Shown here: positions 20,093 through 53,480 of the stretch, in pieces | How the letters are laid out: the number at the start of each line of letters is the position of its first letter | How positions within the stretch are numbered: position 1 is the stretch's first letter | DNA from: a virus | Length of the DNA stretch: 64,000 nt | Virus record (IMG/VR): IMGVR_UViG_3300046808_000337 | Coordinates: 6,038-70,037 of that record | Strand: one strand, 5' to 3' | Made by a program: the position numbers and the translations under genes | The notes under the pieces: generated by a model | Seen by the model: only the letters and a program-made list of their open reading frames with translations | Told to the model about the DNA's origin: nothing | Database searches by the model: none

Positions 20093-20284
20093 ATGTTTAT
20101 CTGCTCAATTATATTGGTCCTACTATCTCTTGGTTTCATGATGAAAAACTCCATATATGGCTGTGGCAAAAGGTGTTACAAGACTCGTAAGGAGGCTCAG
20201 GAACATTGTGACTATGATCAGCAGGTTTATATGTGCTGGGACTGTGAAACCTGGCATATAAAAAATAATGAAGAAAATCCTTGA
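20093..20284 (+). CDS. Small Zn-binding protein with hydrophobic N-terminus
   Basis: 63 aa; CGKRCY..KEA and VYMCWDCETWH motifs. Confidence 0.55.
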   Translation: MFICSIILVLLSLGFMMKNSIYGCGKRCYKTRKEAQEHCDYDQQVYMCWDCETWHIKNNEENP

Positions 20285-20425
20285 CAACCTCGCGTGGTTG
20301 TTTTATGTTTGCTAAAATATTCCGCCCCCCGTTTGTTAAGAGCAACAACAACCGGGGGTTGGAAGGTGGTTACAAATCATAACCAACTCAAAAACCCGTA
20401 AAGTTGCTCTTACGGGTTTTTTTTA
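20281..20425 (+). promoter_or_regulatory. Promoter plus structured attenuator leader of the replication operon
   Basis: TATGTTTG at 20304-20311; hairpins 20320-20364 and 20367-20385; terminator 20390-20424 ending just before ATG 20430. Confidence 0.7.
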
Positions 20426-20429
20426 TTCT

Positions 20430-21119
20430 ATGAACACAGGACAAATAGTTAAAGGGAAACGCAAGCATGACTTCGCAATTATCCCAAACGAAATCTCACA
20501 ATCCAACCAGCTTACAATGGAGGAAAAGGGAATGATGTGCTTCCTTCTTTCACTTCCGGACAATTGGGTACTTTACAAAAAGAACATGTATGATCAGCTT
20601 CCCGATGGGAAACACGCAATTGACCGTGTGTTTAAGTCCCTGCAAGAGAAGGGGTATGTGCTTAGTTGCCGTCACATGGATACTGCTACAGGTAGGATGT
20701 TGGGTTGGAACCATATTGTGTACGATGAACCACAACTTGACCGAGAAGCGGATTTACCGACATCTGGTTTTCCCGTTGTCGGTGATAGCCAACAGTCGGG
20801 TGGCATCGATATATATAAAGAAACAAATACCAACAAAGAAACAATAAAATACAAATACGCATTTGAGGACTTTTGGCTTGCATACGACAAGAAGGTGGAC
20901 AAGAAACAAACCCTTGCTGTATGGAACAGACTATCTGCTGAGGACCGCATACTTGCAGTAGAAGGCGTGGGAAACCATAAGAATGGGCGCGAGAAAAAAT
21001 ATTGGAAGGATCCGGTGCGATATCTTCGCGACAGAAGGTGGGAAGACGAAATGACAACAACGAATGTAAAACAAACAAACTATAGCTATGATCCAAATGA
21101 CCCAAGGAATAAATGGTAA
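20430..21119 (+). CDS. Phage replication initiator (HTH replisome-organiser type)
   Basis: N-terminal FAIIPN..LT.EEKG...LLSLPDNW wHTH; C-terminal FEDFW.AY.KK..K...W...YL...RWEDE. Confidence 0.8.
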   Translation: MNTGQIVKGKRKHDFAIIPNEISQSNQLTMEEKGMMCFLLSLPDNWVLYKKNMYDQLPDGKHAIDRVFKSLQEKGYVLSCRHMDTATGRMLGWNHIVYDEPQLDREADLPTSGFPVVGDSQQSGGIDIYKETNTNKETIKYKYAFEDFWLAYDKKVDKKQTLAVWNRLSAEDRILAVEGVGNHKNGREKKYWKDPVRYLRDRRWEDEMTTTNVKQTNYSYDPNDPRNKW

Positions 21120-23034
21120 GGTATCTATCTACAAAGACTTCAACGACCTGCAAGGATTCCAAATTAGTGTGCTGGGCGCACTTGAACGAATTAGGACTGG
21201 AAAATCAAAGGCACTTGTTGAGAAGGCGAGGGAAGCCAAGACCAAGAAAGAGGCGGACGAGTTAAAAAAGAAACTCCCTGCCGTCTGTTTTAGTGGCACT
21301 TTTTCTAAAAGAAAGGACTCTGAACTGCTTGAACACTCCGGATACATAGTTTTGGACTTCGACAACGTGGCGGATATATCCCAAAAACGAAGCGAATTGT
21401 GTTCGGTAAGGTACATTACCGCAGTGTGGGTTTCACCGTCAGGAAAGGGCTTAAAAGCGCTCGTCCAAATTGAATGGAAAACCATGCATAAAGAGCATTT
21501 TGATGCCTTAATGAATGATATGCCGGACATTGACAAGACTGGACGCAATGTTTCTCGTCTGTGCTTTGAGTCGTATGATCCTGATTTATACTACAATCCG
21601 AGCGCCGAAACTTACAAGTGGTTACCCGTAAAAAAGTCAGACAGAAGGTTGCCTCAACAGACAACTACCGAGACGATTAACGATGACGACAAGATATTCC
21701 AAAACCTTTTGACATGGATGACATCTAAAGGTGATGCGTTCCGCGAGGGTGAAAGGAATCACTTTGTGTTTAAGTTGGCTGCAAGCTGCTGCCGATTTGG
21801 TATGATGGAAGAGACCTGCTACAACTTGATGATGATGCACGTCACTCCCGACTCTAGTTTTAGTCAGAAGGAATGCCGCCAGGCTATCCGCAGTGCGTAC
21901 AGGGCTAACATGAATCAGTGGAACACCGCTGAGTTTACCAAGGACCAACTGGTTACAAAAACTAACCACTTGGAGGTAAAGATTGAACTCACCGAGCAAG
22001 ACCTGGAAGAGATAAGCAAGGACGACGTGATATACGCTGAGGAGGTAATGGAACAGGCTTCTGAAATTTACCACAAGGGATATCAGGCAGCAATGCCTCT
22101 TGGGGTTCCATTACTCGACAAGCACTTCAAAAGAGTCAAGGGCGAATTAACAATTGTTTCCGGAATAGGAAACTACGGTAAGTCATCGTTTATGAAATGG
22201 GAGATGATATTCCGCATGGTCAAGTTTGGGGAGAAGGTGGCCATCTTCACCCCGGAGGAATTACCGGCAGAACAGTTCTATCACGACCTTGTAGAAATTT
22301 ACTTTGGCAAGGACTGTACTCCAAACAATTACAACAGGCCTGGGTACGATGCGTACATGAAGGTGTACAAGATGATTGGCGAACACATCTTCATGGTGTA
22401 CCCCAAGAACGTAAGCCCAACACCCGACTACGTGAAGGAGGTCTTCCTAAGCATGATTATTAAGCACGGTGTGGACCGTGTGATTATCGACCCGTTCAAC
22501 CAAATGGCAAACGACTACACAAAGGGCGGTGGACGTAGCGACAAGTACCTTGAGACGTTTCTGTCCGACTGCACCCGCTTTGCTCGAAAGAACAACGTTT
22601 ACTTTGACATCGTAGTCCACCCACACAAGATGCGTAAGGCTGACGACGGCAACTACCCGTGTCCAGAAGTGTTTGACTTAGCTGATGGTGCGATGTGGAA
22701 TAACAAGGCGGACAACATAATTATTTACCACCGCCCACTTGCTCAGACAGCCCCGGAAAGTCCTTTGTGTGAGTTTCACTCCAAGAAGATCCGCAGACAG
22801 AAGATTGTTGGAATCAAGGGATTCTTTGATTTTGAACTTGTAAGGTCTACTCGCAGGTTTACGTTCGAGGGCGTCGATTACCTTCGTTTGGCGATCGAGG
22901 GTAAATATGTACAGTCTGAAATCAAACAACCAACCGCGATAAAACCGAATAGGAATTGGACTGACTCAAAAGAAGTAAAGGAATGGGAAGAAGACGCAGG
23001 ACACCCGAACGGTTACAAGGAGGCGTGGGAGTAA
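21088..23034 (+). CDS. Primase-helicase (BT4734/VirE-N + PriCT + SF4 helicase)
   Basis: LKKKLP, HSGYIVLDFD, SPSGKGLK and SRLCFESYDP; EGERN PriCT; Walker A GIGNYGKS, IIDP, VVHPHK and WNNKADN. Confidence 0.85.
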   Translation: MIQMTQGINGKVSIYKDFNDLQGFQISVLGALERIRTGKSKALVEKAREAKTKKEADELKKKLPAVCFSGTFSKRKDSELLEHSGYIVLDFDNVADISQKRSELCSVRYITAVWVSPSGKGLKALVQIEWKTMHKEHFDALMNDMPDIDKTGRNVSRLCFESYDPDLYYNPSAETYKWLPVKKSDRRLPQQTTTETINDDDKIFQNLLTWMTSKGDAFREGERNHFVFKLAASCCRFGMMEETCYNLMMMHVTPDSSFSQKECRQAIRSAYRANMNQWNTAEFTKDQLVTKTNHLEVKIELTEQDLEEISKDDVIYAEEVMEQASEIYHKGYQAAMPLGVPLLDKHFKRVKGELTIVSGIGNYGKSSFMKWEMIFRMVKFGEKVAIFTPEELPAEQFYHDLVEIYFGKDCTPNNYNRPGYDAYMKVYKMIGEHIFMVYPKNVSPTPDYVKEVFLSMIIKHGVDRVIIDPFNQMANDYTKGGGRSDKYLETFLSDCTRFARKNNVYFDIVVHPHKMRKADDGNYPCPEVFDLADGAMWNNKADNIIIYHRPLAQTAPESPLCEFHSKKIRRQKIVGIKGFFDFELVRSTRRFTFEGVDYLRLAIEGKYVQSEIKQPTAIKPNRNWTDSKEVKEWEEDAGHPNGYKEAWE

Positions 23035-23048
23035 TTTAACGATTTTTT

Positions 23049-23080
23049 TTTGCATAAAAGAAACATATATGCTACATTTG
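23049..23080 (+). promoter_or_regulatory. Bacteroidota promoter for ssb
   Basis: TTTG-N20-TACATTTG. Confidence 0.7.
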
Positions 23081-25028: not shown

Positions 25029-25112
25029 CTGAGGATGCGTGCTTCACGCAAGTTCAGTTTGTTTTATTTCATTTCGTTTGTGGAAACCGTCTCTTAACCG
25101 AGGCGGTTTTTG
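25029..25112 (+). ncRNA. Candidate small RNA
   Basis: TACATTTG at 25021-25028, 5' hairpin, U-rich single strand, then terminator AAACCGTCTC/GAGGCGGTTT. Confidence 0.55.
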
Positions 25113-25139
25113 CTGTATTGGTGATAGTGATTATATTTG
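25109..25139 (+). promoter_or_regulatory. Bacteroidota promoter
   Basis: TTTG-N19-TATATTTG. Confidence 0.7.
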
Positions 25140-28018: not shown

Positions 28019-28088
28019 GGAGTGATAGCATAGTGGTATGCGTTGGGGTGAAATCCCAAAGAGTTAGGTTCGACTCCTGGTCTCTCCA
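28019..28088 (+). tRNA. tRNA-Phe(GAA)
   Basis: Cloverleaf: GGAGTGA/TCTCTCC (one mismatch), D arm GCAT/ATGC, TTGGG-GTGAAAT-CCCAA, TTCGACT loop. Confidence 0.8.
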
Positions 28089-28094
28089 CAACAT

Positions 28095-28186
28095 AGTCAG
28101 GTGGCGGAATGGTAGACGCGGTGAATGGCAATGTACACACCATGGGTGAGAAACCCTGCTTACAGGTTCGAGTCCTGTCCTGACTA
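28095..28186 (+). ncRNA. tRNA-Leu-like RNA with expanded anticodon loop
   Basis: Same acceptor and T arm as 27870; Leu-type D arm GGCGGAATGGTAGACGC; long variable arm; GGTG-N14-CACC in place of the anticodon arm. Confidence 0.65.
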
Positions 28187-30193: not shown

Positions 30194-30239
30194 GGCTTTT
30201 TTTTACAAATATATGCAAGGTCGTCAATTATCCAAATTT

Positions 30240-30376: not shown

Positions 30377-31204
30377 TCGGCACCCGCCTCGCTCGCTTGC
30401 TTGCCTAGGCTCGGGAGAAAGTAAAGTATTATGTACAGCTATAACATAGGGTATTCTTGGTATCCCATCGGTGGACAAAGTAGACTAACATACTGATAAC
30501 CAACCACATACCGCAAGAATAACTTGTAGTGCTACGTTTATGCATGCGGTTATCTATACGAAATGCAGCCCGCTCCCCTGTATTTAACTTATCATTAACA
30601 GGCCTGTGCCGTCTGCCCTGTGGCCCGCGTGTTTAGTTAATGCCCTGTTAATTCGAGGCCTAACATGCTGAGAATCAACTGCTTGGGCCAGATTCTGCCT
30701 TATTTAGAACCATTCCAAATAGCATTTTGAGGGGGCATAGAGGCATTATCTCGGGCTCGGATGTATGTAGATACCACCTAGGGCGAGAAAGTCGATTTAA
30801 AGCAATTTCCGCGTGTTTACAGGGGTTCTAGCAGGCCCGCTCTTTTTGGTTAGGGCAACCTAGCTCGGGAAGGCCTAATGTGCGGGCGCGCATGAGTGCT
30901 TTGTATGCCTATTGGCTAGTTTGTGCCGGTGCTTTGTGTGTCTCTATAGGGATCTATGGGAGGGCCTTGTGTGGGACTGCCCGCGCTCGGGGCTAGGTTT
31001 GCAGTGTTAACTGCTATGAGAACCAATAAGTTAGGTGGGAATTTCCCCAAATATAGGGTATGTTGGCCCCATATCCAAATATACCCTTAACTTTTTTGTA
31101 CACTGATTATCAACACGTTACATTAAAAACATTATGTTATGACATAAAAAGTGTTACTGAAATGTTAATGTCGAGCTCACAGCGAGCAGACCCCCCCATC
31201 TTTG

Positions 31205-38318: not shown

Positions 38319-38551
38319 AAATCAAAATCGAAAAGGGTGTGCCGATCCCTAAAACACGCGGCAACAGGAACATCTACCCGTTCAAAAAGATGAGCATAGG
38401 AGACTCGTTCTTTATCTCAGACAAGTCTAACCCGAAGAAGGCGCTGCGCAACGTGTGCTCGGCAGCCAGCTTCTTCAAAAAGAAGAACCCCAAGTACAAC
38501 TTCCATTCGAGGTCGTATGTCACCGGAGTTCGCGTGTGGAGGGTAGAATGA
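38315..38551 (+). CDS. Small basic putative DNA-binding phage protein
   Basis: IEKGVPIP..YPF..M.IGDSF...GVRVWR family. Confidence 0.6.
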   Translation: MKIKIEKGVPIPKTRGNRNIYPFKKMSIGDSFFISDKSNPKKALRNVCSAASFFKKKNPKYNFHSRSYVTGVRVWRVE

Positions 38552-38982
38552 AGCACAACGGAGTAATCACGCCACAGGGGGCATTGCGAATCTACAATCG
38601 CCCCCTCTTTGATGAGGAAGTCAGAGCCATGTCCCGTGAAAAGGACTTGGCTGTGACCATCGAAGTCAAGATGAAGAAACGTGTACGCTCCGACGTGCAG
38701 AACGCATACTATTGGGGCGTAGTCGTGTCGATGATAGTGGAAAGGCTCAGGGAGCTTGGCCATGACGTTGACCGCGACCTCGCGCATGAGTTCCTCAAGG
38801 GAAGATTCCTTTACTCTGAACTGACCGACCCGACCACCGGTGAAGTCATGAGAATCCCACGCAAAACGTCAGACCTGGCAACGGAGGAATTTATTGAGTA
38901 CATGGAACACGTCAAGCAGTTTGCTGCCGAGACGTTGGATATTTATATCCCAGACCCGAATGAGCAACTTGAGATAGGTTAA
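38548..38982 (+). CDS. NinB/YbcN-like recombination protein
   Basis: RS..QNAYYWG, HEFLK and TSDL.TEEF..Y.E motifs. Confidence 0.7.
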   Translation: MKHNGVITPQGALRIYNRPLFDEEVRAMSREKDLAVTIEVKMKKRVRSDVQNAYYWGVVVSMIVERLRELGHDVDRDLAHEFLKGRFLYSELTDPTTGEVMRIPRKTSDLATEEFIEYMEHVKQFAAETLDIYIPDPNEQLEIG

Positions 38983-39180
38983 ACCCTTGGTTCACTCAAA
39001 AGAAAAGAAGAGAAAAGAAACAAGTCAAGAAGAAACCTAAAGAGAAGAAAAGAAAAAGCCTCCCCCCGTGAAAAACAAACTACCCCGCCCCACAAAGGGG
39101 CAGCTACCCGATCCAACATACTCGCGTATGAAGTTTGCCTCTTGCACCGACAGGGCTGATTCGGGTGGTGGGGTTGGGGT

Positions 39181-39321
39181 AAAAAAAAAGCCCTCGTCTG
39201 GCTGGACCGAGGGCAATTCATAATAAGAATTTTAATTCTTATCTCCCACATTACACTGCCAGCCAGACACTGTAATGTGAGAACGCAACAAATGTATGGC
39301 GACCGCAACACGGAAGTCAAA
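39181..39321 (-). ncRNA. Antisense-strand promoter plus three-hairpin RNA ending in a terminator
   Basis: TTTG-N21-TACATTTG; hairpin 39244-39282, AT-rich hairpin 39223-39242, GCCCTCG/CGAGGGC-T9. Confidence 0.7.
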
Positions 39322-39377
39322 AGAAATAATTGCATAAACAACACACATAAGTTATCTTTGTAAAAAACAACAACGAA

Positions 39378-41194
39378 ATGAAAAAGCAAACAGCAGTAGA
39401 GTGGTTAACAGACCAACTTAGAATAGACGGCGGAACAATGCGAGACAAAGCATTAGCAATGGAGAAGGAGCAGATTGAAGATGCTTTTTTGGAAAGTCGA
39501 TTAATTCATCCAATGATTGGTTTCAAACACGAAGCATTTAACGATTACTTTAACGAAACATACGGAGGTGACAAATGACAATAGCACAGCGATTAAACAT
39601 CAAAGATTTTCCCTTTGTTGTCAGAGACAGCGGGGACAGGATTATTTACTACGAAAACAGCCACCATTTTTGGGAGATAAACGAATACGAACAAAGTGGG
39701 AAGCAAATCTATTACGAAAACAGCGAGGGGTTGATCGAAGACTACCGCCCCAAGCCAGAAGCCACAATACTCGGCCACTGGCATAAGGGGGGAAAGGTTG
39801 AAATGACCAAAGAGAAGATTGAAGAATGGCTTGACATGTATTCAAAACTAGAGAATCCATCAGTCTCGGACGCTACAAAAATGATGTGGGAAGATGTGGC
39901 AAAAATATTTTCAAAACAACTTAAAGGAGGTGAGCAAGAACATGACTGAGGAATTTAATTACTCATTAGTAGAGTGTGATATATGTAGAATCATGTGGGT
40001 TGCTGTTAGACCTATTGAAACATCAGAACTTGAATGTCCTAATTGTAATCACATGACATTTATTGAAGGAGGTGACAAATGAAAAGGCAAACAATAGCCG
40101 ATGTTATAGAAAGTGACTCATTCCAAAAAGCAATAAGAGACGCCATTGAGTGCGGGGAGCATAGGGACTGGGTGTACGATGGCGAAAACGAGTACGGCAT
40201 TGACACGTTCGATTCACAAGAAGCCCTAGAAGAGGTTATTAAGGTGATAAAAAAACATTTTACTTGACACAAATGAAAAACAAAAAAGTAGACTTTTATC
40301 AGGTTCCCAAGAACGAATGGCAGATGCCCATCGAGAAGGGATACAAGATGGCCTGTTGCGACTGCGGACTCGTCCACAGCATGGACTTCAAGGTGATTGA
40401 CCCAGACACCAACAAGGTCATTAAGAATGCGCGGGCAATCCTCAGAGCAAGAAGGCACGAGACATTGACAAAGCAGCTCAGAAAAAACAAATACTGAAAT
40501 AATATGAAAAAGCAAACAGCAGTAGAGTGGTTAATAGAGCAAATAGGATGGTATAATATCGAACTTTCATCTGAGTTGAGATTTGAAATAGATAAAGCCA
40601 AAACAATGGAGAAGGAGCAGATTGTTCATTGTTATGAGCAAGCCTATCGTGATGGATATATAGATAATGGTAAGTCTGGACAAGATTACTACAACGAAAC
40701 ATACGGAGGTGACAAATGAAGAATGTACGCATAGTTAAACGAACAATGCCAGACGGAAGGGTCTACTACTTTTATCAAGTGGAGAAGAAATTTCTATGGA
40801 AGCGTTGGTGGGCTGACTACTACGACGGATGGTATGCAAGAGACCTGTTTTATACCTTGGAAGAGGCTCAAGAGAATTTATGGTATGTACAAGAAATTAA
40901 ACCAATTGACGAAATAGTAGAAGGTGACGAATAAGTACACCACCTCCAAAATAAGTACACCAGTAAAAAATAACTTAAATGAAAGCAATACTTGAATTCA
41001 ACCTTCCTGAGGATCAGGAATACTTCGACATGGCAGTCAAAGCCCGCGAGATGGCCTACGCACTCAACGACATCAGAAACTACCTCAGAGGTAGAGTAAA
41101 GTACGAAGAGATGCCGGCTGAAAAGTGGGAGACCTGCGACGAGATATACCAAGAGTTTTTCAGATTACTAGAGCAAAACGACATCAAGCTATGA
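39378..41194 (+). other. Cassette-like array of small genes
   Basis: ORFs 39378-39578, 39575-39949, 39942-40082 (Zn ribbon), 40079-40267, 40273-40497, 40504-40719, 40716-40934 and 40979-41194; promoter TATCTTTG at 39353; two MKKQTAVEWL paralogues. Confidence 0.65.
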
Positions 41195-47978: not shown

Positions 47979-50900
47979 TTATATTTTAGTTACAAGCAAT
48001 TGAAGGTTTGCCCAAGAGAATACCGCAGCCCCTGACTCTACGTTAAATCCAAGGATGTCGTTAGCGGCAAGAGTAACTGATGTCCACCCAGAAGGTGATG
48101 CACTTGTTATTTGCTGTGTGGCGCTCGTTAGGAATGGCTTGGTCCCGCCTCCAACCAATGAGTTAGCTACCGTTGGGATAGCATTGTTTGCCCTCCATAT
48201 ATCAAACGTCACGGTTGCTCCCAAACCAGAATTACCTGTCAAGATCGACCATGTGTTAATTGTACAAGCGTATGGGATTCTTATGTACCCCTTCTGGCCG
48301 GCTGTAATTACACCTCCCGATCCGTCAACCGTAATACCTATGCTGAACGTACCCGATAAGCTTGGAACGCTGCCCGTTTTCCATTGGCTATCAGCCGAAT
48401 CAAAGTATATCGTATCATTATCGTTAGGCGACTGCGCCTGTACGTCATGAAGCTCATCTAACTCGTATCCGTTCTGGCATCGAACGTAGATCTGACCATT
48501 ACCCGCGTTGCTCTTCTCTACTATACCCACGTACACACGGTGTGTTGGTGCATAAGTTGGAGTTGATGTATAACCTCCGGGTGTGGTTCCGCTCAAGTAC
48601 AGGGTAGCACCTGCCGCAAACGCCGCCGTGTTGATTCCCTCTATTACACCTTGAATGATGATGTAACCCTCGCCACCCGCTGCGATTGATGAGTCGTAAA
48701 CCATACCAATCGTCTTTGCCGAAGTGTCGTCTGCATTAGCAAGAGCGAGCTTTACGCTCATCCTGTCTCCGGAAGCACCAAACGCATATACTACCTGACC
48801 CTTGGTTATTGGGGCAGCCTCTGAGTTGTGTACGTATGCAAGTAGTTGGTTGGTCACCAATCCGATTGCTTGGAAGTTTGTTCCGTCATACACGACCATG
48901 ATTTCTTGGCCTGCCTTGATATCCCCTGCCGCAATCTTTACATTGGTGTTCTTGAATATGTTGATTGGCGCAAGAGTATTTATCTGTAATGTAGACTCTC
49001 CCTCGTTGGTGCTATCAAAATTAATCATGAAGGCTTCGCCAGCCGTGTATGCGGTAACACCAGATATTGTCGCTTCATATACGCCGTCTGTCACCTGAAT
49101 AGCGTTTCCCGACTTTAAACCGCCGCCTCCGCCAGTTGGGGTAAACTCAACCACATCACCACTAGAGTTTACACCTAGCGCCCATACAGGGCTTGCATCA
49201 GGGAATTGAGCGGGGGTTTGGCCGTATTCATTTAACTTCAACTGACCAAGTGTGTCAATCTCAAGTTTGTTAACAGGAATAGGGCTTCCTGATTCCTTAA
49301 TGGAAACAAAGAAGTCAGCAGTTTCAGCATTGCCAGCAGCCGTTACTGATGTAGAAACAAATCCTATGTTACCTGCATCATAGCTTGTTGCGTTGTCATT
49401 GCTTAATGTATACAGAGTCTTGGCCCCATGTCCTATAAGTCCCCCTCCAATCCTTGTAGAAAAAACGTGGAGTGGCGTTCTTATCAAGTCTGCCACATCT
49501 GAGTTGGAACTTATTACTCCAGCCATTACTCCGTAAGATCTGCTGCCAATGGTCTGGATGTGATTATTAGTTGTTCCTAAAACGCCTATGCCTTTAGTGT
49601 TTCCTTGTCCAAAAATACCTGCTGAATTGTATGCCGCACCCGCATTTAAGCCTCCCCTAACGGCATAGGAAGCTCCAAGAGTAGCAACCAAGCTATTATT
49701 AGTCACGCTAAGCACACTAATTCCAGTTGGTGGTGTGCCAACTATTTGCAGGTTAAAGTCATCAAAGTTAAGATACCTATCCTGCGTAAACATATTGCCG
49801 ACAGTACCTGCATCTCCCGATGATAAGTACCCTAACTGAAATGTTTCGTTTGTAAGGGAGGTATTCTTGTATATGCCTTCGTTTGCGTCGTAGGTTCCGC
49901 CGCCACCGCCAAGAGGAACTTCCATTATTGACCCAGAAGCATTAACACCCAATCCGTATACCGCTGGACTAGCTGGATTTGTAAGCCAGGTTCCTATACC
50001 GTAAGTGTTAAATATCACTTGACCGTCCCCCTCAAATTGGGCAACCCTTCTGATGTTTGGGTCATTAGAAGGAAGTGTATACCCCTCTATGACAAAAGCA
50101 GTTCCATATTCTATAGCCAGTATGTTTTCCGGGCTTGCTATGTAGCCTATGTTACCTGCTTGCTTGTATCCAATACCCGTATTTGGGTCTGGTATTGCAA
50201 AAGATACCCTGGCAGACTTATCAGACGCATTTCCGGATGTTGTTGCGCTTCTCCATAGTTCTAAAACATTGTTTTGAGTATCGCTTTCTTGTAAGAAGTA
50301 AGACGCAAACTTCTGAGATACCTCCATACCGCTTACTGGAGCGTTTATTCTCAATCCAGATCCGGTTGTCGAGTCAAGATTTAATACAAATCCATCTCCA
50401 ACTGTACCTGAAACATTGAAATTAACCATCCCGCCTGGATATACGGGGTCAACACCCTCCATATTAAACGTAAACGTATCTAAGTCTACGAATCTGTTTT
50501 CTTGAAACGCTATACTAGCTTGCAGTCCAGATGGCGCACCAAGCATGAACGTGTCATTGGTAAGTGTAGTATCCTTATATACGCCTTGATTGGAGTCGTA
50601 GGTTCCGCCTCCACCATCTGCACTAAGTGTGTCGCCAGTCAAGGTCAACCCAGACCCAATAACGATCTGCTCGAAAACCCCTGTGCCTGAGCTATAACGT
50701 CCCACGAGGAATCCGCTGTCCATTATAGATGTAACAGTCCCTGTGGTTTCAATCGGATTCGGAGACGTGGTCAAGAGTCCTGTTGCGGTTACTGAGGTAA
50801 CAGTTCCTCCGCCCTCAGATAACTTCTTAAAGACGTTACCGCTCGTATCAACGGCAAGCACGTATTCGAGGTCGTTATTGATATTGCTTGTGCTGTTGCT

Positions 50901-52664
50901 GAACGCAGATGTAGCGTATTCATTCAACACAAGCTGACCAAATCCCTGCAACTCTAGCTTGTTTGAAAGCGTTCCGTTATCAACGAGTTGAACCTCAAAC
51001 CTAGTCTCCTCATTACCATCAACAAAACTTACCACCTCGGTAGACAGGCGAGAGCCTATGAAGTTTGAGCTGGCTACTACCGCGTTGTTGTTTCTGAACT
51101 GGTAGTCTATCGTCATCATGGCAAGCGATGGATCACCCGTGTAACGGAGGCGCAAAAGCGTGTCGTCCGCAGTCGGGAGGTTGCCCTCCATGTTTAACTC
51201 AAGTAACGGCTGGAGAAGGTCGACATCGCCGACGATTTCTACGGACGGATTAGGTCTTGAGCCTGATCCATAGTCCTGGAAGGTGGCTACACCGCCATTT
51301 CCAAGATTAGCCACACCAAATGGGAAGCGAGTGTCTTGGTCTGCGCTGCCTCTTACAGATAGTTGCCACTCGTTTACCGGACCGGGGCTTGCCCCCTCCG
51401 TAGTTTCTATTAAGGTATCTTCGATAAGCTGTCCGCCCAAGTGGAACACCAAAGGATCGGCAGGAGATTCTTTTGTATGAAGACCGTTTTCTACTGTGTA
51501 CACCGGGAGCGTAGCGAGTTCACCAAGTCCATTGATGTACTCTAAGGCTGTACCCGCGCCTGTTACCAAAATATCACCCGAAGTAGTAATGGGAGAATTA
51601 GTCACGGTAAATGCACTAGGCATATCAAGGCCAACGGATGTAACCGTACCTGTGCCTGCTAGGGTATATTCGACGTGACCCGAAGCGTCAAGGGCGAGAA
51701 CCATTCCCGGTGTTGCGGTTGCGTATCCGGGGGTTATGATATCTACAAATGCATTTCCCGAAATGGTTACAGCCCCCGGATCTATTTGCACAAATCCAAT
51801 TGAGCCGGCACCATCATCTGCGGTGTAAACCTGGTAAGCGATTGTGTCTATCGTGTATCGGTTTACATTAGTCCACCCAAAATTAAATCCTCCACCGTCA
51901 ACCGCGTTATTCTGCGTAAGCAAAGAACTAATGTTCAACGTGTCCTGCCAGTCTTGAACCAGCGATCCGCCAACGCTTGTAACGTCTACGCAAAGAGATG
52001 TACCAGCAGGGAATCCGGCAGGGCCGGTGAGAAGGGTAGAATCAAATTGAGCATACGTTCCTCCATCGCTATAGTTAGATAACTGATATACGCCGTAAAC
52101 AGTCGGGTCAGTCTTGCTGAAAATAAAAACCCATGAACCATCTTGGACTATAGGCCAAAAGCCTGTGAAGTCTTGGTTGTTTGCTGTGAAATAATTAAAG
52201 CGAACAGCTGACCCGCCGTCTACAAATATACCGGGGTTCTCAGCACCAGTATCACCAGCCGTATACTGAATGGAACATTCCGGCTCCGTATTCCCGCACT
52301 CGCAGCATCCCTTGAAGATAGCGGTTACAAGAAGTCGATATATTTCAACTGTCTTGGCTTGTACTACATCGGAAGAGTCTTGGAATGTAAGTGGGGTAAA
52401 TGTGTTACCACCAACGTCAGTTATCGCGTAAATTGTAAATGTAAACGAGTCCCCGGATACCTGTGAAATTGTAATGCTATCGTACCGATACGAAATGTAA
52501 GTCGGCGTCTGTGGCATGATTTGACTCATGCCTCGAACGTACTGATACGGGGCAACAGTCCCATTTAGAAAGGACACTGTGTCGTTTCCCTCTACTTGTA
52601 TTCGGGTAATTATGGGATTGTTGATATCAATCCGTTGCCTGTTCGATGTCGGTATTGTAGCCAT
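47979..52664 (-). CDS. Large tail fibre protein
   Basis: 1561 aa; GTVTSV motifs, repeated GQL.LNEY..L.V..SG.V..GGGG modules, KGQVVY and ELDELHDV motifs. Confidence 0.75.
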   Translation of the reverse strand: MATIPTSNRQRIDINNPIITRIQVEGNDTVSFLNGTVAPYQYVRGMSQIMPQTPTYISYRYDSITISQVSGDSFTFTIYAITDVGGNTFTPLTFQDSSDVVQAKTVEIYRLLVTAIFKGCCECGNTEPECSIQYTAGDTGAENPGIFVDGGSAVRFNYFTANNQDFTGFWPIVQDGSWVFIFSKTDPTVYGVYQLSNYSDGGTYAQFDSTLLTGPAGFPAGTSLCVDVTSVGGSLVQDWQDTLNISSLLTQNNAVDGGGFNFGWTNVNRYTIDTIAYQVYTADDGAGSIGFVQIDPGAVTISGNAFVDIITPGYATATPGMVLALDASGHVEYTLAGTGTVTSVGLDMPSAFTVTNSPITTSGDILVTGAGTALEYINGLGELATLPVYTVENGLHTKESPADPLVFHLGGQLIEDTLIETTEGASPGPVNEWQLSVRGSADQDTRFPFGVANLGNGGVATFQDYGSGSRPNPSVEIVGDVDLLQPLLELNMEGNLPTADDTLLRLRYTGDPSLAMMTIDYQFRNNNAVVASSNFIGSRLSTEVVSFVDGNEETRFEVQLVDNGTLSNKLELQGFGQLVLNEYATSAFSNSTSNINNDLEYVLAVDTSGNVFKKLSEGGGTVTSVTATGLLTTSPNPIETTGTVTSIMDSGFLVGRYSSGTGVFEQIVIGSGLTLTGDTLSADGGGGTYDSNQGVYKDTTLTNDTFMLGAPSGLQASIAFQENRFVDLDTFTFNMEGVDPVYPGGMVNFNVSGTVGDGFVLNLDSTTGSGLRINAPVSGMEVSQKFASYFLQESDTQNNVLELWRSATTSGNASDKSARVSFAIPDPNTGIGYKQAGNIGYIASPENILAIEYGTAFVIEGYTLPSNDPNIRRVAQFEGDGQVIFNTYGIGTWLTNPASPAVYGLGVNASGSIMEVPLGGGGGTYDANEGIYKNTSLTNETFQLGYLSSGDAGTVGNMFTQDRYLNFDDFNLQIVGTPPTGISVLSVTNNSLVATLGASYAVRGGLNAGAAYNSAGIFGQGNTKGIGVLGTTNNHIQTIGSRSYGVMAGVISSNSDVADLIRTPLHVFSTRIGGGLIGHGAKTLYTLSNDNATSYDAGNIGFVSTSVTAAGNAETADFFVSIKESGSPIPVNKLEIDTLGQLKLNEYGQTPAQFPDASPVWALGVNSSGDVVEFTPTGGGGGLKSGNAIQVTDGVYEATISGVTAYTAGEAFMINFDSTNEGESTLQINTLAPINIFKNTNVKIAAGDIKAGQEIMVVYDGTNFQAIGLVTNQLLAYVHNSEAAPITKGQVVYAFGASGDRMSVKLALANADDTSAKTIGMVYDSSIAAGGEGYIIIQGVIEGINTAAFAAGATLYLSGTTPGGYTSTPTYAPTHRVYVGIVEKSNAGNGQIYVRCQNGYELDELHDVQAQSPNDNDTIYFDSADSQWKTGSVPSLSGTFSIGITVDGSGGVITAGQKGYIRIPYACTINTWSILTGNSGLGATVTFDIWRANNAIPTVANSLVGGGTKPFLTSATQQITSASPSGWTSVTLAANDILGFNVESGAAVFSWANLQLLVTKI

Positions 52665-53408: not shown

Positions 53409-53480
53409 GGCGAATATATACGCAAGGTTCGTTTGTGCAAAATAATTTTGCATTAAATAATAAATGTCATATATTTGCCC

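What the first reader, a model, noticed from the sequence alone, without database searches (positions are those of the whole stretch)
39181..39321. Second, sequence-unrelated copy of the same three-hairpin kissing architecture on the antisense strand
Seen (minus strand): consensus promoter, a 12-bp hairpin with loop GTCTGGCTGG (39268-39259), a short AT-rich hairpin, then a terminator with the exact complement CCAGCCAGAC (39205-39196) and T9. The order, length (~105 nt) and 10-bp complementarity match the 20.3 kb element, but the 10-nt sequence is different. Two independent instances make chance unlikely and suggest an RNA family with orthogonal specificities.
Basis: partly seen in the sequence, partly recalled or inferred. 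Interest (0 to 1): 0.75.

Follow-up and report, generated by a model that had tools for sequence, protein, structure and literature searches.

The report
Phage leader RNA with kissing terminator loop
A phage of Flavobacterium-like bacteria carries two short promoter-to-terminator RNAs in which the loop of the first hairpin base-pairs with the loop of the terminator, a pairing kept through many sequence changes in related phages, and one copy sits directly in front of the replication gene, so it is most likely a new kind of gene-control leader.

Summary
On the minus strand, 39296->39181, lie a promoter, a 12-bp hairpin whose loop holds GTCTGGCTGG, an AT-rich hairpin, and a terminator (7-bp stem, U9) whose loop holds the exact complement. 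A second unit at 20304-20424 (+) has the same layout with a different word.

Related phage contigs decide the matter. A structure model that ignores the loop-loop pairing finds the 39.2-kb element in 33 of 52 NinB-linked loci. Across those and the window there are 12 different loop words, and each matches its own terminator loop. Three loci show a U.G wobble, which points to RNA on this strand.

The 20.3-kb type lies 3-20 nt before the replication-initiator start codon in 57 of 60 testable loci and shows four word types.

The promoter is of the Bacteroidota type (TTTG-N21-TACATTTG), not a sigma-70 consensus. No Rfam family matches.

Best reading (0.5): a cis-acting 5' leader or attenuator whose loop-loop pseudoknot sets termination against read-through. 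The direction of the effect, and any action in trans, are inferred. "Orthogonal specificities" is only partly borne out.

The element at 39.2 kb precedes an ultra-conserved non-coding block, not a gene.

The parts
39289..39321 (-). Promoter of element B: -33 box TTTG (39321-39318), a 21-nt spacer with a small inverted repeat, and -7 box TACATTTG (39296-39289)
   Evidence: Sequence. The bipartite motif search gave 7 matches against 0.93 expected. A TAnnTTTG box is present in 34 of 34 B instances.
39244..39282 (-). Hairpin 1: 12-bp stem and 15-nt loop carrying word X, GTCTGGCTGG (39268-39259)
   Evidence: Fold. Six of 12 stem pairs show changes on both sides and 96.9% of cells are paired.
39223..39242 (-). 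Hairpin 2: AT-rich, variable in sequence, acting as a spacer or strut
   Evidence: Fold. Five of 8 pairs show double changes, but only 71% of cells pair on the MAFFT alignment.
39181..39214 (-). Intrinsic terminator: stem GCCCUCG/CGAGGGC, 11-nt loop carrying X' CCAGCCAGA(C) (39205-39196), then U9 (39189-39181)
   Evidence: Stem cells are 100% paired. In the part of the loop-loop helix tested, 99.2% of cells pair and 4 of 5 pairs show double changes.
38990..39180 (-). Conserved non-coding block downstream of B's terminator. Its C-rich 5' end pairs with a G-rich segment. A second terminator-like hairpin lies at 39103-39085, followed by UUUGUUUUU. It ends in a 75-nt pyrimidine-rich stretch.
   Evidence: Twenty-one distinct sequences are identical over about 75 columns and no covariation is seen. 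An exact 40-mer occurs in 24 IMG/VR contigs, all of which carry B. Contigs from RNA libraries cover it.
20304..20424 (+). Element A, the sister copy: -7 box TATGTTTG (20304-20311), hairpin 1 (20320-20364) with loop word AAGAGCAAC (20338-20346), hairpin 2 (20365-20388), and terminator (20390-20421) with GTTGCTCTT (20403-20411) followed by a U-run
   Evidence: Model R1 hits 20305-20426. Covariation is shown.
20430..21119 (+). Replication initiation protein gene, whose ATG lies 5 nt after element A's U-run. The primase/helicase gene follows at 21088-23034.
   Evidence: phrog_270 at E 1.4e-17; phrog_18375 and PF08800.

Best explanation
Elements B (39.2 kb, minus strand) and A (20.3 kb, plus strand) are two members of one family of phage 5' leader RNAs that has not been catalogued. 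Each unit has its own Bacteroidota-type promoter. It transcribes about 100 nt that fold into hairpin 1, spacer hairpin 2 and an intrinsic terminator placed just in front of the cargo. For A the cargo is the replication-initiator and primase/helicase operon. For B it is a conserved non-coding block.

The loop of hairpin 1 (word X) pairs over 7-11 bp with the loop of the terminator (word X'), forming a pseudoknot or kissing contact.

Shown here: the transcription signals, the three helices, the loop-loop pairing (by covariation), the RNA strand, and the fixed position in front of the cargo.

Inferred: the contact decides how much RNA polymerase stops at the terminator (giving the ~100-nt RNA) and how much reads through into the cargo.

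My preferred direction is anti-termination. X sits in a hairpin loop that is already folded. It can capture X' as soon as X' leaves the polymerase, before the terminator's 3' arm is made. The long loop-loop helix then hinders or strains closure of the terminator stem, so pairing in cis favours read-through. Released short RNAs, whose loops stay free, could bind nascent leaders in trans and restore termination. That would give dosage-dependent negative feedback on replication genes. Hairpin 2 would provide the time and distance between X and X'.
For: Transcription unit:
- The TAnnTTTG box is conserved in 34 of 34 B units and 55 of 58 A units; the other 3 A units have TAnnTTTA.
- The bipartite motif is enriched in the window, 7 matches against 0.93 expected.
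- All distant protein relatives are phages of Flavobacteriia.
- Every unit ends in a GC-rich stem followed by a U-run.

Structure:
- B alignment: 91.2% of cells paired against 37-52% in the slid controls, and 17 pairs with double changes.
- A alignment: 92.5% against 37-53%.

Loop-loop pairing:
- B instances were found by a model that does not include this pairing. There are 34 instances, 28 distinct sequences and 12 words. The helix has 9 or more pairs in 32 of 34 and 7-8 pairs in the other 2.
- The cognate duplex is the most stable in 12 of 12 rows.
- A has four word types in 58 units, including wholly different words where the Rep protein is only 36-54% identical.
- A U.G wobble occurs in L002, L006 and L040. 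On the other strand, or as a DNA half-site, it would be a mismatch.

Leader position:
- A's U-run ends 3-20 nt before the rep ATG in 58 of 58 units.
- B is followed by one of two conserved non-coding blocks in 34 of 34 instances.
- One contig from an RNA library runs across B's termination point (X1 record 2, 39009-39215).

No other target: neither word has another match in the window above chance.
Against: - No experiment or stranded read data shows where the RNA starts or ends, or how efficient the terminator is. The RNA-library contig could come from carried-over DNA.
- The direction of the effect is not determined. Overlap of X' with the terminator's 3' arm is 2-3 nt in this genome but 0 nt in the 7-bp variants (GAACCAC, GTAAGGC, GTAGTGC). 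Direct competition for the same bases is therefore not a conserved feature.
- My steric argument rests on crude helix-length arithmetic, not on a model.
- Action in trans has no direct support. The words share a conserved half, so variants are only partly orthogonal. The loop-loop helix covaries at about the same rate as ordinary stems, which simple structural constraint would explain.
- B has no protein-coding cargo in this genome.
- Alignments A1 and A2 were made from sequences I had picked with a complementarity filter, so their percentage paired for the loop-loop helix is biased upward. The unbiased tallies are those.
Confidence: 0.5

Rival explanations
1. Stand-alone small RNA. The ~100-nt terminated transcript is the functional product. 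The two complementary loops let it form closed homodimers or multimers (X of one molecule with X' of the next, as in phi29 pRNA), or recognise like molecules. The loop word sets the specificity, so that A, B and the RNAs of co-infecting relatives do not mix.
For: - Each unit has a strong promoter and a strong terminator.
- A and B words in one genome do not cross-pair.
- Words differ between close relatives.
- A symmetric dimer would stack hairpin 1, the kissing helix and the terminator on both sides without linker strain. This is my geometric inference.
- B has no gene behind it in this genome.
Against: - A is fixed 3-20 nt before the rep start codon in 58 of 58 units. B is always followed by a conserved block. 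Both fit a leader better than a free-standing gene.
- Orthogonality among B variants is partial: 19 of 132 non-cognate pairs lie within 4 kcal/mol of the cognate.
- No partner or target was found.
Confidence: 0.27
2. Cis-antisense regulator. B is transcribed against the plus-strand NinB-to-downstream operon and acts like ColE1 RNA I or lambda OOP on the read-through plus-strand transcript, or on an R-loop at the polypurine block. The internal X/X' match would be secondary.
For: - B lies between two plus-strand genes, and no plus-strand terminator separates them.
- It has three stem-loops over about 100 nt.
- The adjacent block is a 75-nt polypurine/polypyrimidine tract that is 100% conserved.
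Against: - Antisense pairs are complementary automatically, so this reading does not explain why X and X' within one strand covary.
- Element A has the same design but lies on the sense strand of its operon.
- By eye on the sequence, I found no TAnnTTTG box on the strand opposite A. This was not a formal scan.
Confidence: 0.1
3. A tertiary contact with no switching role. The kissing contact merely compacts and stabilises the terminated RNA, or helps an unusually large terminator loop to fold, which would favour termination.
For: - The terminator loops are large (8-11 nt, up to 19 nt), whereas the clearest other terminators of this genome have 4-6-nt loops.
- The loop-loop helix covaries at a rate like ordinary stems.
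Against: - A 9-11-bp helix of -15 to -22 kcal/mol is far more than a stabilising tertiary contact needs.
- This reading does not explain why a constitutive promoter-terminator pair should sit directly in front of the replication gene.
Confidence: 0.1
4. A DNA-level feature: an inverted repeat bound by a dimeric protein, an inversion site, an origin hairpin, or a chance palindrome.
For: At the DNA level X and X' form a 9-10-bp inverted repeat about 54 bp apart. A lies next to replication genes.
Against: - The U.G wobble variants are a mismatch in DNA.
- Both words sit exactly in hairpin loops between a conserved promoter and a U-run.
- Stem wobbles are strand-specific (U.G in 17 of 24 rows at one stem pair).
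- Twelve words would need twelve co-evolved proteins.
- The spacer is too short for known invertases (recalled, not tested).
- Chance is excluded.
Confidence: 0.03

Closest known systems
P4 CI RNA and P1/P7 c4 RNA: phage immunity RNAs encoded on the sense strand (recalled; no paper read here)
   Same: They are phage-encoded and lie in the untranslated leader upstream of replication or anti-repressor genes. The regulator box and its target boxes lie on the same strand of the same transcript. The boxes change together between heteroimmune relatives. Pairing causes premature termination.
   Different: Those RNAs are cut out of a longer transcript by RNase P, and they pair with linear boxes upstream and downstream. 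Here both boxes are hairpin loops within one ~100-nt promoter-to-terminator unit, and one box is the terminator loop itself. Nothing in Rfam, which includes the C4 family, matches.
Replication-gene leader attenuators of plasmids pT181, pIP501 and pAMbeta1 (recalled)
   Same: An intrinsic terminator lies immediately 5' of the rep start codon, and loop-loop kissing decides between termination and read-through. This gives copy-number feedback.
   Different: In those plasmids the kissing partner is a counter-transcript from the opposite strand, and a pre-emptor pairs with the terminator's 5' arm. Here the partner is in the same RNA and pairs with the terminator loop. I saw no counter-transcript promoter.
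Pseudoknot-type transcriptional riboswitches: fluoride, ZTP, preQ1-I (titles and abstracts seen in the listing)
   Same: An upstream hairpin loop pairs with a downstream segment at the terminator, and the pseudoknot competes with the terminator during transcription.
   Different: In those riboswitches the 3' strand of the pseudoknot overlaps the terminator's 5' arm, and a conserved ligand pocket exists. Here the pairing words are the most variable columns, the junction is not conserved, and no Rfam model matches.
ColE1 RNA I (recalled)
   Same: It is about 108 nt long, has three stem-loops, uses kissing loops, and controls replication.
   Different: RNA I is antisense to RNA II, and its loops are not complementary to each other.
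phi29 pRNA (recalled)
   Same: Two loops of one RNA are mutually complementary and covary among related phages.
   Different: In pRNA the pairing is only 4 nt, intermolecular, and forms a ring on the packaging motor of protein-primed podoviruses. Here the phage has a terminase, the units lie in early regions, and the pairing is 7-11 nt.
sRNAs that pair through their terminator loops (PMC11979758; title and abstract seen in the listing)
   Same: A terminator loop is used as a base-pairing site.
   Different: Those are trans-acting bacterial sRNAs that pair with mRNAs, not with a loop of the same RNA.

Membership tests
Intrinsic (factor-independent) terminator | GC-rich stem-loop followed directly by a U-tract | tested here: met
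   B has a 7-bp stem with 6 G-C pairs, followed by U9. A has a 10-12-bp stem followed by U8. Termination itself was not measured.
Bacteroidota sigma-A promoter | TTTG (-33) and TAnnTTTG (-7) boxes 19-21 nt apart (consensus recalled) | tested here: met
   39321-39289 is an exact match. The -7 box is conserved in 34 of 34 B units and 55 of 58 A units.
Any Rfam 15 family, including C4 antisense RNA, pRNA, RNAI and the riboswitches | Covariance-model match at the gathering score | tested here: not met
   In the whole window only two tRNAs reach the gathering score. In 38800-39500 the best hits at E up to 10 are far below their gathering scores. Four relatives gave 0 hits at E up to 1.
Plasmid-type antisense copy control (ColE1 RNA I, pT181 RNAI/II) | The regulator is transcribed from the strand opposite its target | tested here: inconclusive
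   B is antisense to a possible plus-strand read-through transcript, but A is on the sense strand. Neither counter-transcript has been shown to exist.
Plasmid-type antisense copy control (pT181) | A pre-emptor pairs with the 5' arm of the terminator | tested here: not met
   Complementarity is to the terminator loop, plus 0-3 nt of the 3' arm.
P4 CI / P1 c4 type sense-encoded immunity RNA | Complementary boxes on one strand of one leader that covary between relatives | tested here: met
   Twelve B words and four A word types, each with its own complement.
P4 CI / P1 c4 type sense-encoded immunity RNA | RNase P processing from a longer transcript, lysogenic immunity | not testable with these tools
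   No end-mapping data are available. I found no integrase or repressor, but I did not search for them. The Rep-based scan found no relative in GTDB genomes.
Ligand-sensing riboswitch | Invariant nucleotides forming a pocket at the helix junction | tested here: not met
   The linkers and hairpin 2 are among the most variable parts. Mean column entropy is 1.08 for the linker and 0.86 for hairpin 2, against 0.35-0.59 for the stems.
phi29 pRNA-like multimerising RNA | Two mutually complementary loops in one RNA | tested here: met
   Whether the pairing is within one molecule or between molecules cannot be told from sequence.
phi29 pRNA-like multimerising RNA | Association with a phi29-type packaging motor | tested here: not met
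   The phage has a large terminase and a portal. The units lie in the replication and nin-like regions.

The most novel reading that the evidence does not exclude
A self-titrating sense-RNA attenuator. The nascent leader's own loop-loop pairing lets RNA polymerase read through into the replication genes. The short RNAs released by termination carry the same two loops, bind new leaders in trans, and force termination. The phage thereby counts its own genome copies with an RNA that is both sensor and signal. The 4-5 variable bases of the word would act as an incompatibility or immunity code between co-infecting relatives, and between the two units of one genome. This would be a natural set of programmable, orthogonal kissing-loop transcription switches in Bacteroidota phages.
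Probability: 0.2. Interest if true: 0.85.

Novelty: new variant of a known kind. Interest (0 to 1): 0.66.

Why it matters
Very little is known about regulatory RNA in Bacteroidota phages. In this case covariation already supports the structure of a compact (~100 nt) unit that sits in front of the replication initiator across a whole clade of freshwater phages.

A terminator whose loop is pre-paired with an upstream hairpin loop is not among the described attenuator designs that I could find: Rfam 15 and literature searches. If the contact sets termination, it is a new way to build a protein-free and ligand-free transcription switch. The natural word variants would then be ready-made orthogonal parts.

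The finding also points to two conserved non-coding blocks behind the second copy. Those are unexplained in their own right.

Tried and rejected
- Rfam at gathering and at E-value thresholds: no family.
- Megablast of 38500-40500 against GenBank phages: no match.
- Rep protein against GTDB genome contigs: 33 pattern hits, none confirmed.
- The 40-mer of the conserved block against genome contigs: 0 matches. No host or prophage was found.
- Earlier notes of this scan: none for this genome or sequence.
- Further targets of the words in the window: only chance-level near-matches, plus one extra exact 9-mer of the A word inside a large gene at 48507-48515.
- Coding readings were rejected.
  - The 136-aa ORF 38979-39389 (-) spans the whole element and lies in a region whose AT skew points to plus-strand coding.
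  - The 41-50-aa minus-strand ORF in the downstream block changes mostly by non-synonymous differences, and the window carries a 1-nt deletion inside an otherwise identical stretch.
  - The 81-85-aa ORF behind B in 7 loci has C-terminal frames that shift between loci, and it has no PHROG family.
- The model R1 search of the window's own genome through the genome search listed only B, although cmsearch on the window found A as well. I take this to be the tool's first-look filter.
- R1 found B in 3 of 5 complete related genomes.
- The 13-kb regions around the primase genes of two distant relatives (MW202828, Maribacter phage Panino) hold no such unit.
- Sequencing runs. Five RNA-library runs each held only 5-6% of the words. 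Four were laid (X1, X2, X3, X5); X4 was not. They are contigs, so they give no starts, ends or strand. Hairpin 1 and the promoter had no cover, which proves nothing. Contig ends near 39168-39170 coincide with a strain-variable C-rich stretch and are not taken as RNA ends.
- Literature searches found no description of this element. I saw only listings and abstracts and opened no paper. Supplements were not consulted.
- The count of structure pairs could test only 6 of the 10 loop-loop pairs of B. MAFFT placed the gaps of X and X' differently, so the full tally was made by script.

Full report
**Observation.** Read on the minus strand, the region holds five features in order.
- A promoter.
- Hairpin 1: arms 39282-39271 and 39255-39244, with a 15-nt loop that contains GTCTGGCTGG at 39268-39259.
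- Hairpin 2, AT-rich: 39242-39223.
- An 8-nt linker.
- A terminator: stem 39214-39208 / 39196-39190, an 11-nt loop, then U9 at 39189-39181. CCAGCCAGAC lies at 39205-39196.

ViennaRNA gives exactly these three hairpins at -46.3 kcal/mol, z = -5.6, with 0 of 200 shuffles as stable. The unit at 20.3 kb on the plus strand folds alike (z = -4.6). Its words are AAGAGCAAC at 20338-20346 and GTTGCTCTT at 20403-20411.

My own scan found 31 terminator-like sites in the 70,037-bp genome. Only these two have a loop complement of 9 nt or more within 120 nt upstream; the other 29 have 6 nt or fewer. Shuffling the upstream 120 nt gave two or more such sites in 3 of 2000 trials.

**Host type and promoter.** The window is 64 kb of an IMG/VR virus record rated complete. 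It is a tailed phage.
- Portal and large terminase.
- A replication initiator and a primase/helicase with a BT4734-like domain.
- NinB/Orf-like, NinG/Rap-like and Cas4-like exonuclease genes.

The distant tblastn relatives of the primase/helicase (192 records) and of the terminase (87 records) are almost all phages of Flavobacteriia: Flavobacterium, Cellulophaga, Maribacter, Tenacibaculum, Nonlabens. One Bradyrhizobium record and a few unnamed records are the exceptions.

The same bases are an exact match to the Bacteroidota bipartite motif (consensus recalled): TTTG, 21 nt, TACATTTG, at 39321-39289. That motif occurs 7 times in the window against 0.93 expected, and 0 of 100 shuffles reach 7. 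The -7 box is kept in 34 of 34 units of the 39.2-kb type and in 55 of 58 of the 20.3-kb type.

**Relatives.**
- NinB-like protein search: 52 IMG/VR loci.
- Rep protein search: 61 IMG/VR loci.
- My terminator-plus-loop-complement filter over all 113 loci found 244 terminator-like sites. Sixty-three had a complement of 8 nt or more. All 63 lie at one of two homologous positions: 29 behind NinB on the opposite strand, and 34 just before rep. None of the other 181 sites qualified.

Because that filter selects for complementarity, I built a covariance model (R1) from 24 sequences using only the three nested helices. R1 found the 39.2-kb type (B) in 33 of the 52 loci, plus the window. Of the 19 loci without a hit, six end within 35 nt of the NinB match (lengths). 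Thirteen extend 330 nt or more and lack B, and two complete relatives also lack it.

R1 also hit element A in the window over its full length (20305-20426, 28 bits, E 0.0012). This was the only match at E below 0.1 apart from the B units themselves. The genome search route did not list it.

**Covariation.** In the 34 B instances (28 distinct sequences), the hairpin-1 loop carries 12 different words, listed here without the shared 5' U that extends most helices: GTCTGGCTGG, GTCTGGCCGG, GTCTGGTAC, GTCTGGTAG, GTCTGACGG, GTTTGGCGG, CTGGCACC, GTTGGAGAG, GTGTGAGAG, GTGTAGAGAG, GTGTAGGA, GTGGAAG.
- Each word faces its own complement in the terminator loop. The helix has 9-11 pairs in 32 of 34 instances and 7-8 pairs in the other two.
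- L002, L006 and L040 pair GUUUGGCGG with CCGCCAGAC through a U.G wobble. This fits RNA of this strand. It would be an A.C mismatch on the other strand and a mismatch in duplex DNA.
- On alignment A1, the testable part of the loop-loop helix is 99.2% paired, with double changes at 4 of 5 pairs.
- Hairpin 1 has double changes at 6 of 12 pairs.
- The whole structure is 91.2% paired against 37-52% when the partners are slid.
- The rows of A1 had passed my complementarity filter, so the unbiased figures are those.
- Duplex energies: the cognate pair is the most stable in 12 of 12 rows (mean -16.8 kcal/mol against -7.1 for non-cognate). However, 19 of 132 non-cognate pairs lie within 4 kcal/mol, because most words share the half GUCUGG/CCAGAC.
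- Column entropy puts the distal halves of X and X' among the most variable columns: 0.85 and 0.94, against 0.35-0.59 for the stems.

**Element A.** A unit is present before rep in 57 of the 60 loci that reach upstream, and in the window. L076 is cut; L103, L112 and L113 lack the unit. There are four word types.

| Word type | Units | Helix length |
|---|---|---|
| AAGAGCAAC | 21 | 7-10 bp |
| AAGAACCAC | 28 scored by the script, plus L079 and L080 read by eye after the script mis-parsed them | 7-9 bp |
| GTAAGGC / GCCTTAC | 6 (Rep 36% identical) | 7 bp |
| GTAGTGC / GCACTAC | 1 (L095) | 7 bp |

On alignment A2, the two positions that differ between the first two word types change on both sides in 10 of 26 rows, and the helix is 100% paired. 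The same selection caveat applies. The U-run ends 3-6 nt before the rep start in 37 units and 10-20 nt before it in 21.

**What lies behind B.** No minus-strand gene follows B here.
- In 27 of the 34 instances, the U-run is followed by a ~190-nt block (window 39180-38990). It is nearly invariant: about 75 consecutive columns are identical in 21 distinct sequences, and no covariation is seen.
- An exact 40-mer of this block occurs in 24 IMG/VR contigs, all of which carry B, and in no GTDB genome contig.
- In the other 7 instances, a different ~300-nt block follows. It has variable-length hairpin inserts and indels that are not multiples of three. The open frame of 81-85 codons that begins 3-5 nt after the U-run shifts frame between loci.
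- Both blocks share the strands of a possible closing helix. I judged this by eye.
- Contigs from three RNA libraries labelled riverine metagenome cover 39009-39170. One 260-nt contig runs from the block across the U-run to 39215 and continues into a relative's hairpin 2. This is compatible with read-through, but carried-over DNA is not excluded.

**Interpretation.**
- Firmly shown: a family of ~100-nt RNA units bounded by a promoter and a terminator, with three helices and a selected loop-loop pairing between hairpin 1 and the terminator.
- Shown by position: for A the unit is the leader of the replication operon.
- Not shown: what the pairing does.

I commit to a cis-acting attenuator in which the pseudoknot tunes termination, and I favour anti-termination for three reasons.
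1. X is presented in a folded loop about 50-60 nt before X' appears.
2. The helix, at -15 to -22 kcal/mol, is stronger than a mere tertiary contact.
3. Stacking hairpin 1 (12 bp), the loop helix (about 10 bp) and the terminator stem (7 bp) gives a rod of roughly 80 Å. Hairpin 2 plus an 8-nt linker can barely span that length. This is my rough arithmetic, not a model.

Released RNAs with free loops could then bind nascent leaders in trans and restore termination, which would give copy-number feedback. Three points weigh against this reading.
- The overlap of X' with the terminator's 3' arm is not conserved.
- Orthogonality among variants is partial.
- The covariation rate needs no selection for diversity.

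The rivals are a stand-alone or dimerising small RNA, a cis-antisense regulator of the plus-strand operon, a purely stabilising contact, and a DNA-level site.

**Comparison and novelty.** No Rfam 15 family matches. Five literature searches found no description (listings and abstracts only). Four known systems work in a similar way.
- P4 CI and P1 c4: sense-encoded boxes in a replication-gene leader.
- The pT181-type rep attenuators: kissing decides termination just before rep.
- Pseudoknot-type transcriptional riboswitches.
- phi29 pRNA: two complementary loops in one RNA.

The element fails a defining feature of each: processing and linear boxes, a counter-transcript and pre-emptor, a ligand pocket, and the packaging context. 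I therefore file it as a new variant of a known kind, a leader/attenuator RNA using a kissing contact, and not as a member of any named family.

Noticed in passing
window 38990-39180 (-): A non-coding block behind element B. About 75 consecutive pyrimidine-rich bases are identical in 21 distinct relatives, so it is better conserved than the neighbouring genes. It occurs only in contigs that carry B (24 of 24). Contigs from three RNA libraries cover it. Its function is unknown; it could be an ncRNA cargo, an origin or R-loop site, or a protein site.
   Followed up: partly
L019, L020, L027, L028, L029, L043, L047, about 300 nt downstream of B (e.g. L043:2250-2571, minus strand): An alternative block behind B that looks like a structured RNA. 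It has conserved segments interrupted by variable-length hairpins, indels that are not multiples of three, and a predicted long-range closing helix. There is no Rfam hit. The 81-85-codon frame in it is doubtful.
   Followed up: partly
window 20286-20303 (+) and 39303-39313 (-): A small inverted repeat lies between the -33 and -7 boxes of both promoters. In element A it covaries among relatives (ACAACC..GGTTGT against ACAAAC..GTTTGT). It may be an operator. For A it may instead be the terminator of the small upstream ORF.
   Followed up: no
L054, L060, L073, L082, L083: hairpin 2 of element A: In relatives whose word is AAGAACCAC, the loop of hairpin 2 carries TTGCTCTT, which is the terminator-loop word of the other word type (AAGAGCAAC). 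It may be a relic of a word switch, or a decoy for the other type.
   Followed up: no
window 20095-20270 (+): A small Cys-rich ORF of about 58 codons with its own TAAATTTG box lies just upstream of element A. Its 3' end is conserved in the relatives' upstream sequences.
   Followed up: no
window 28019-28186 (+): Two adjacent tRNA genes (Rfam tRNA, 50 and 39 bits).
   Followed up: no
window 23049-23080, 25109-25139, 53447-53477 (+); 30206-30236, 31048-31079, 50996-51026 (-): Six further exact matches to the Bacteroidota bipartite promoter motif. By coordinates, several lie just upstream of ORF starts (for example before 23113 and 25155).
   Followed up: no
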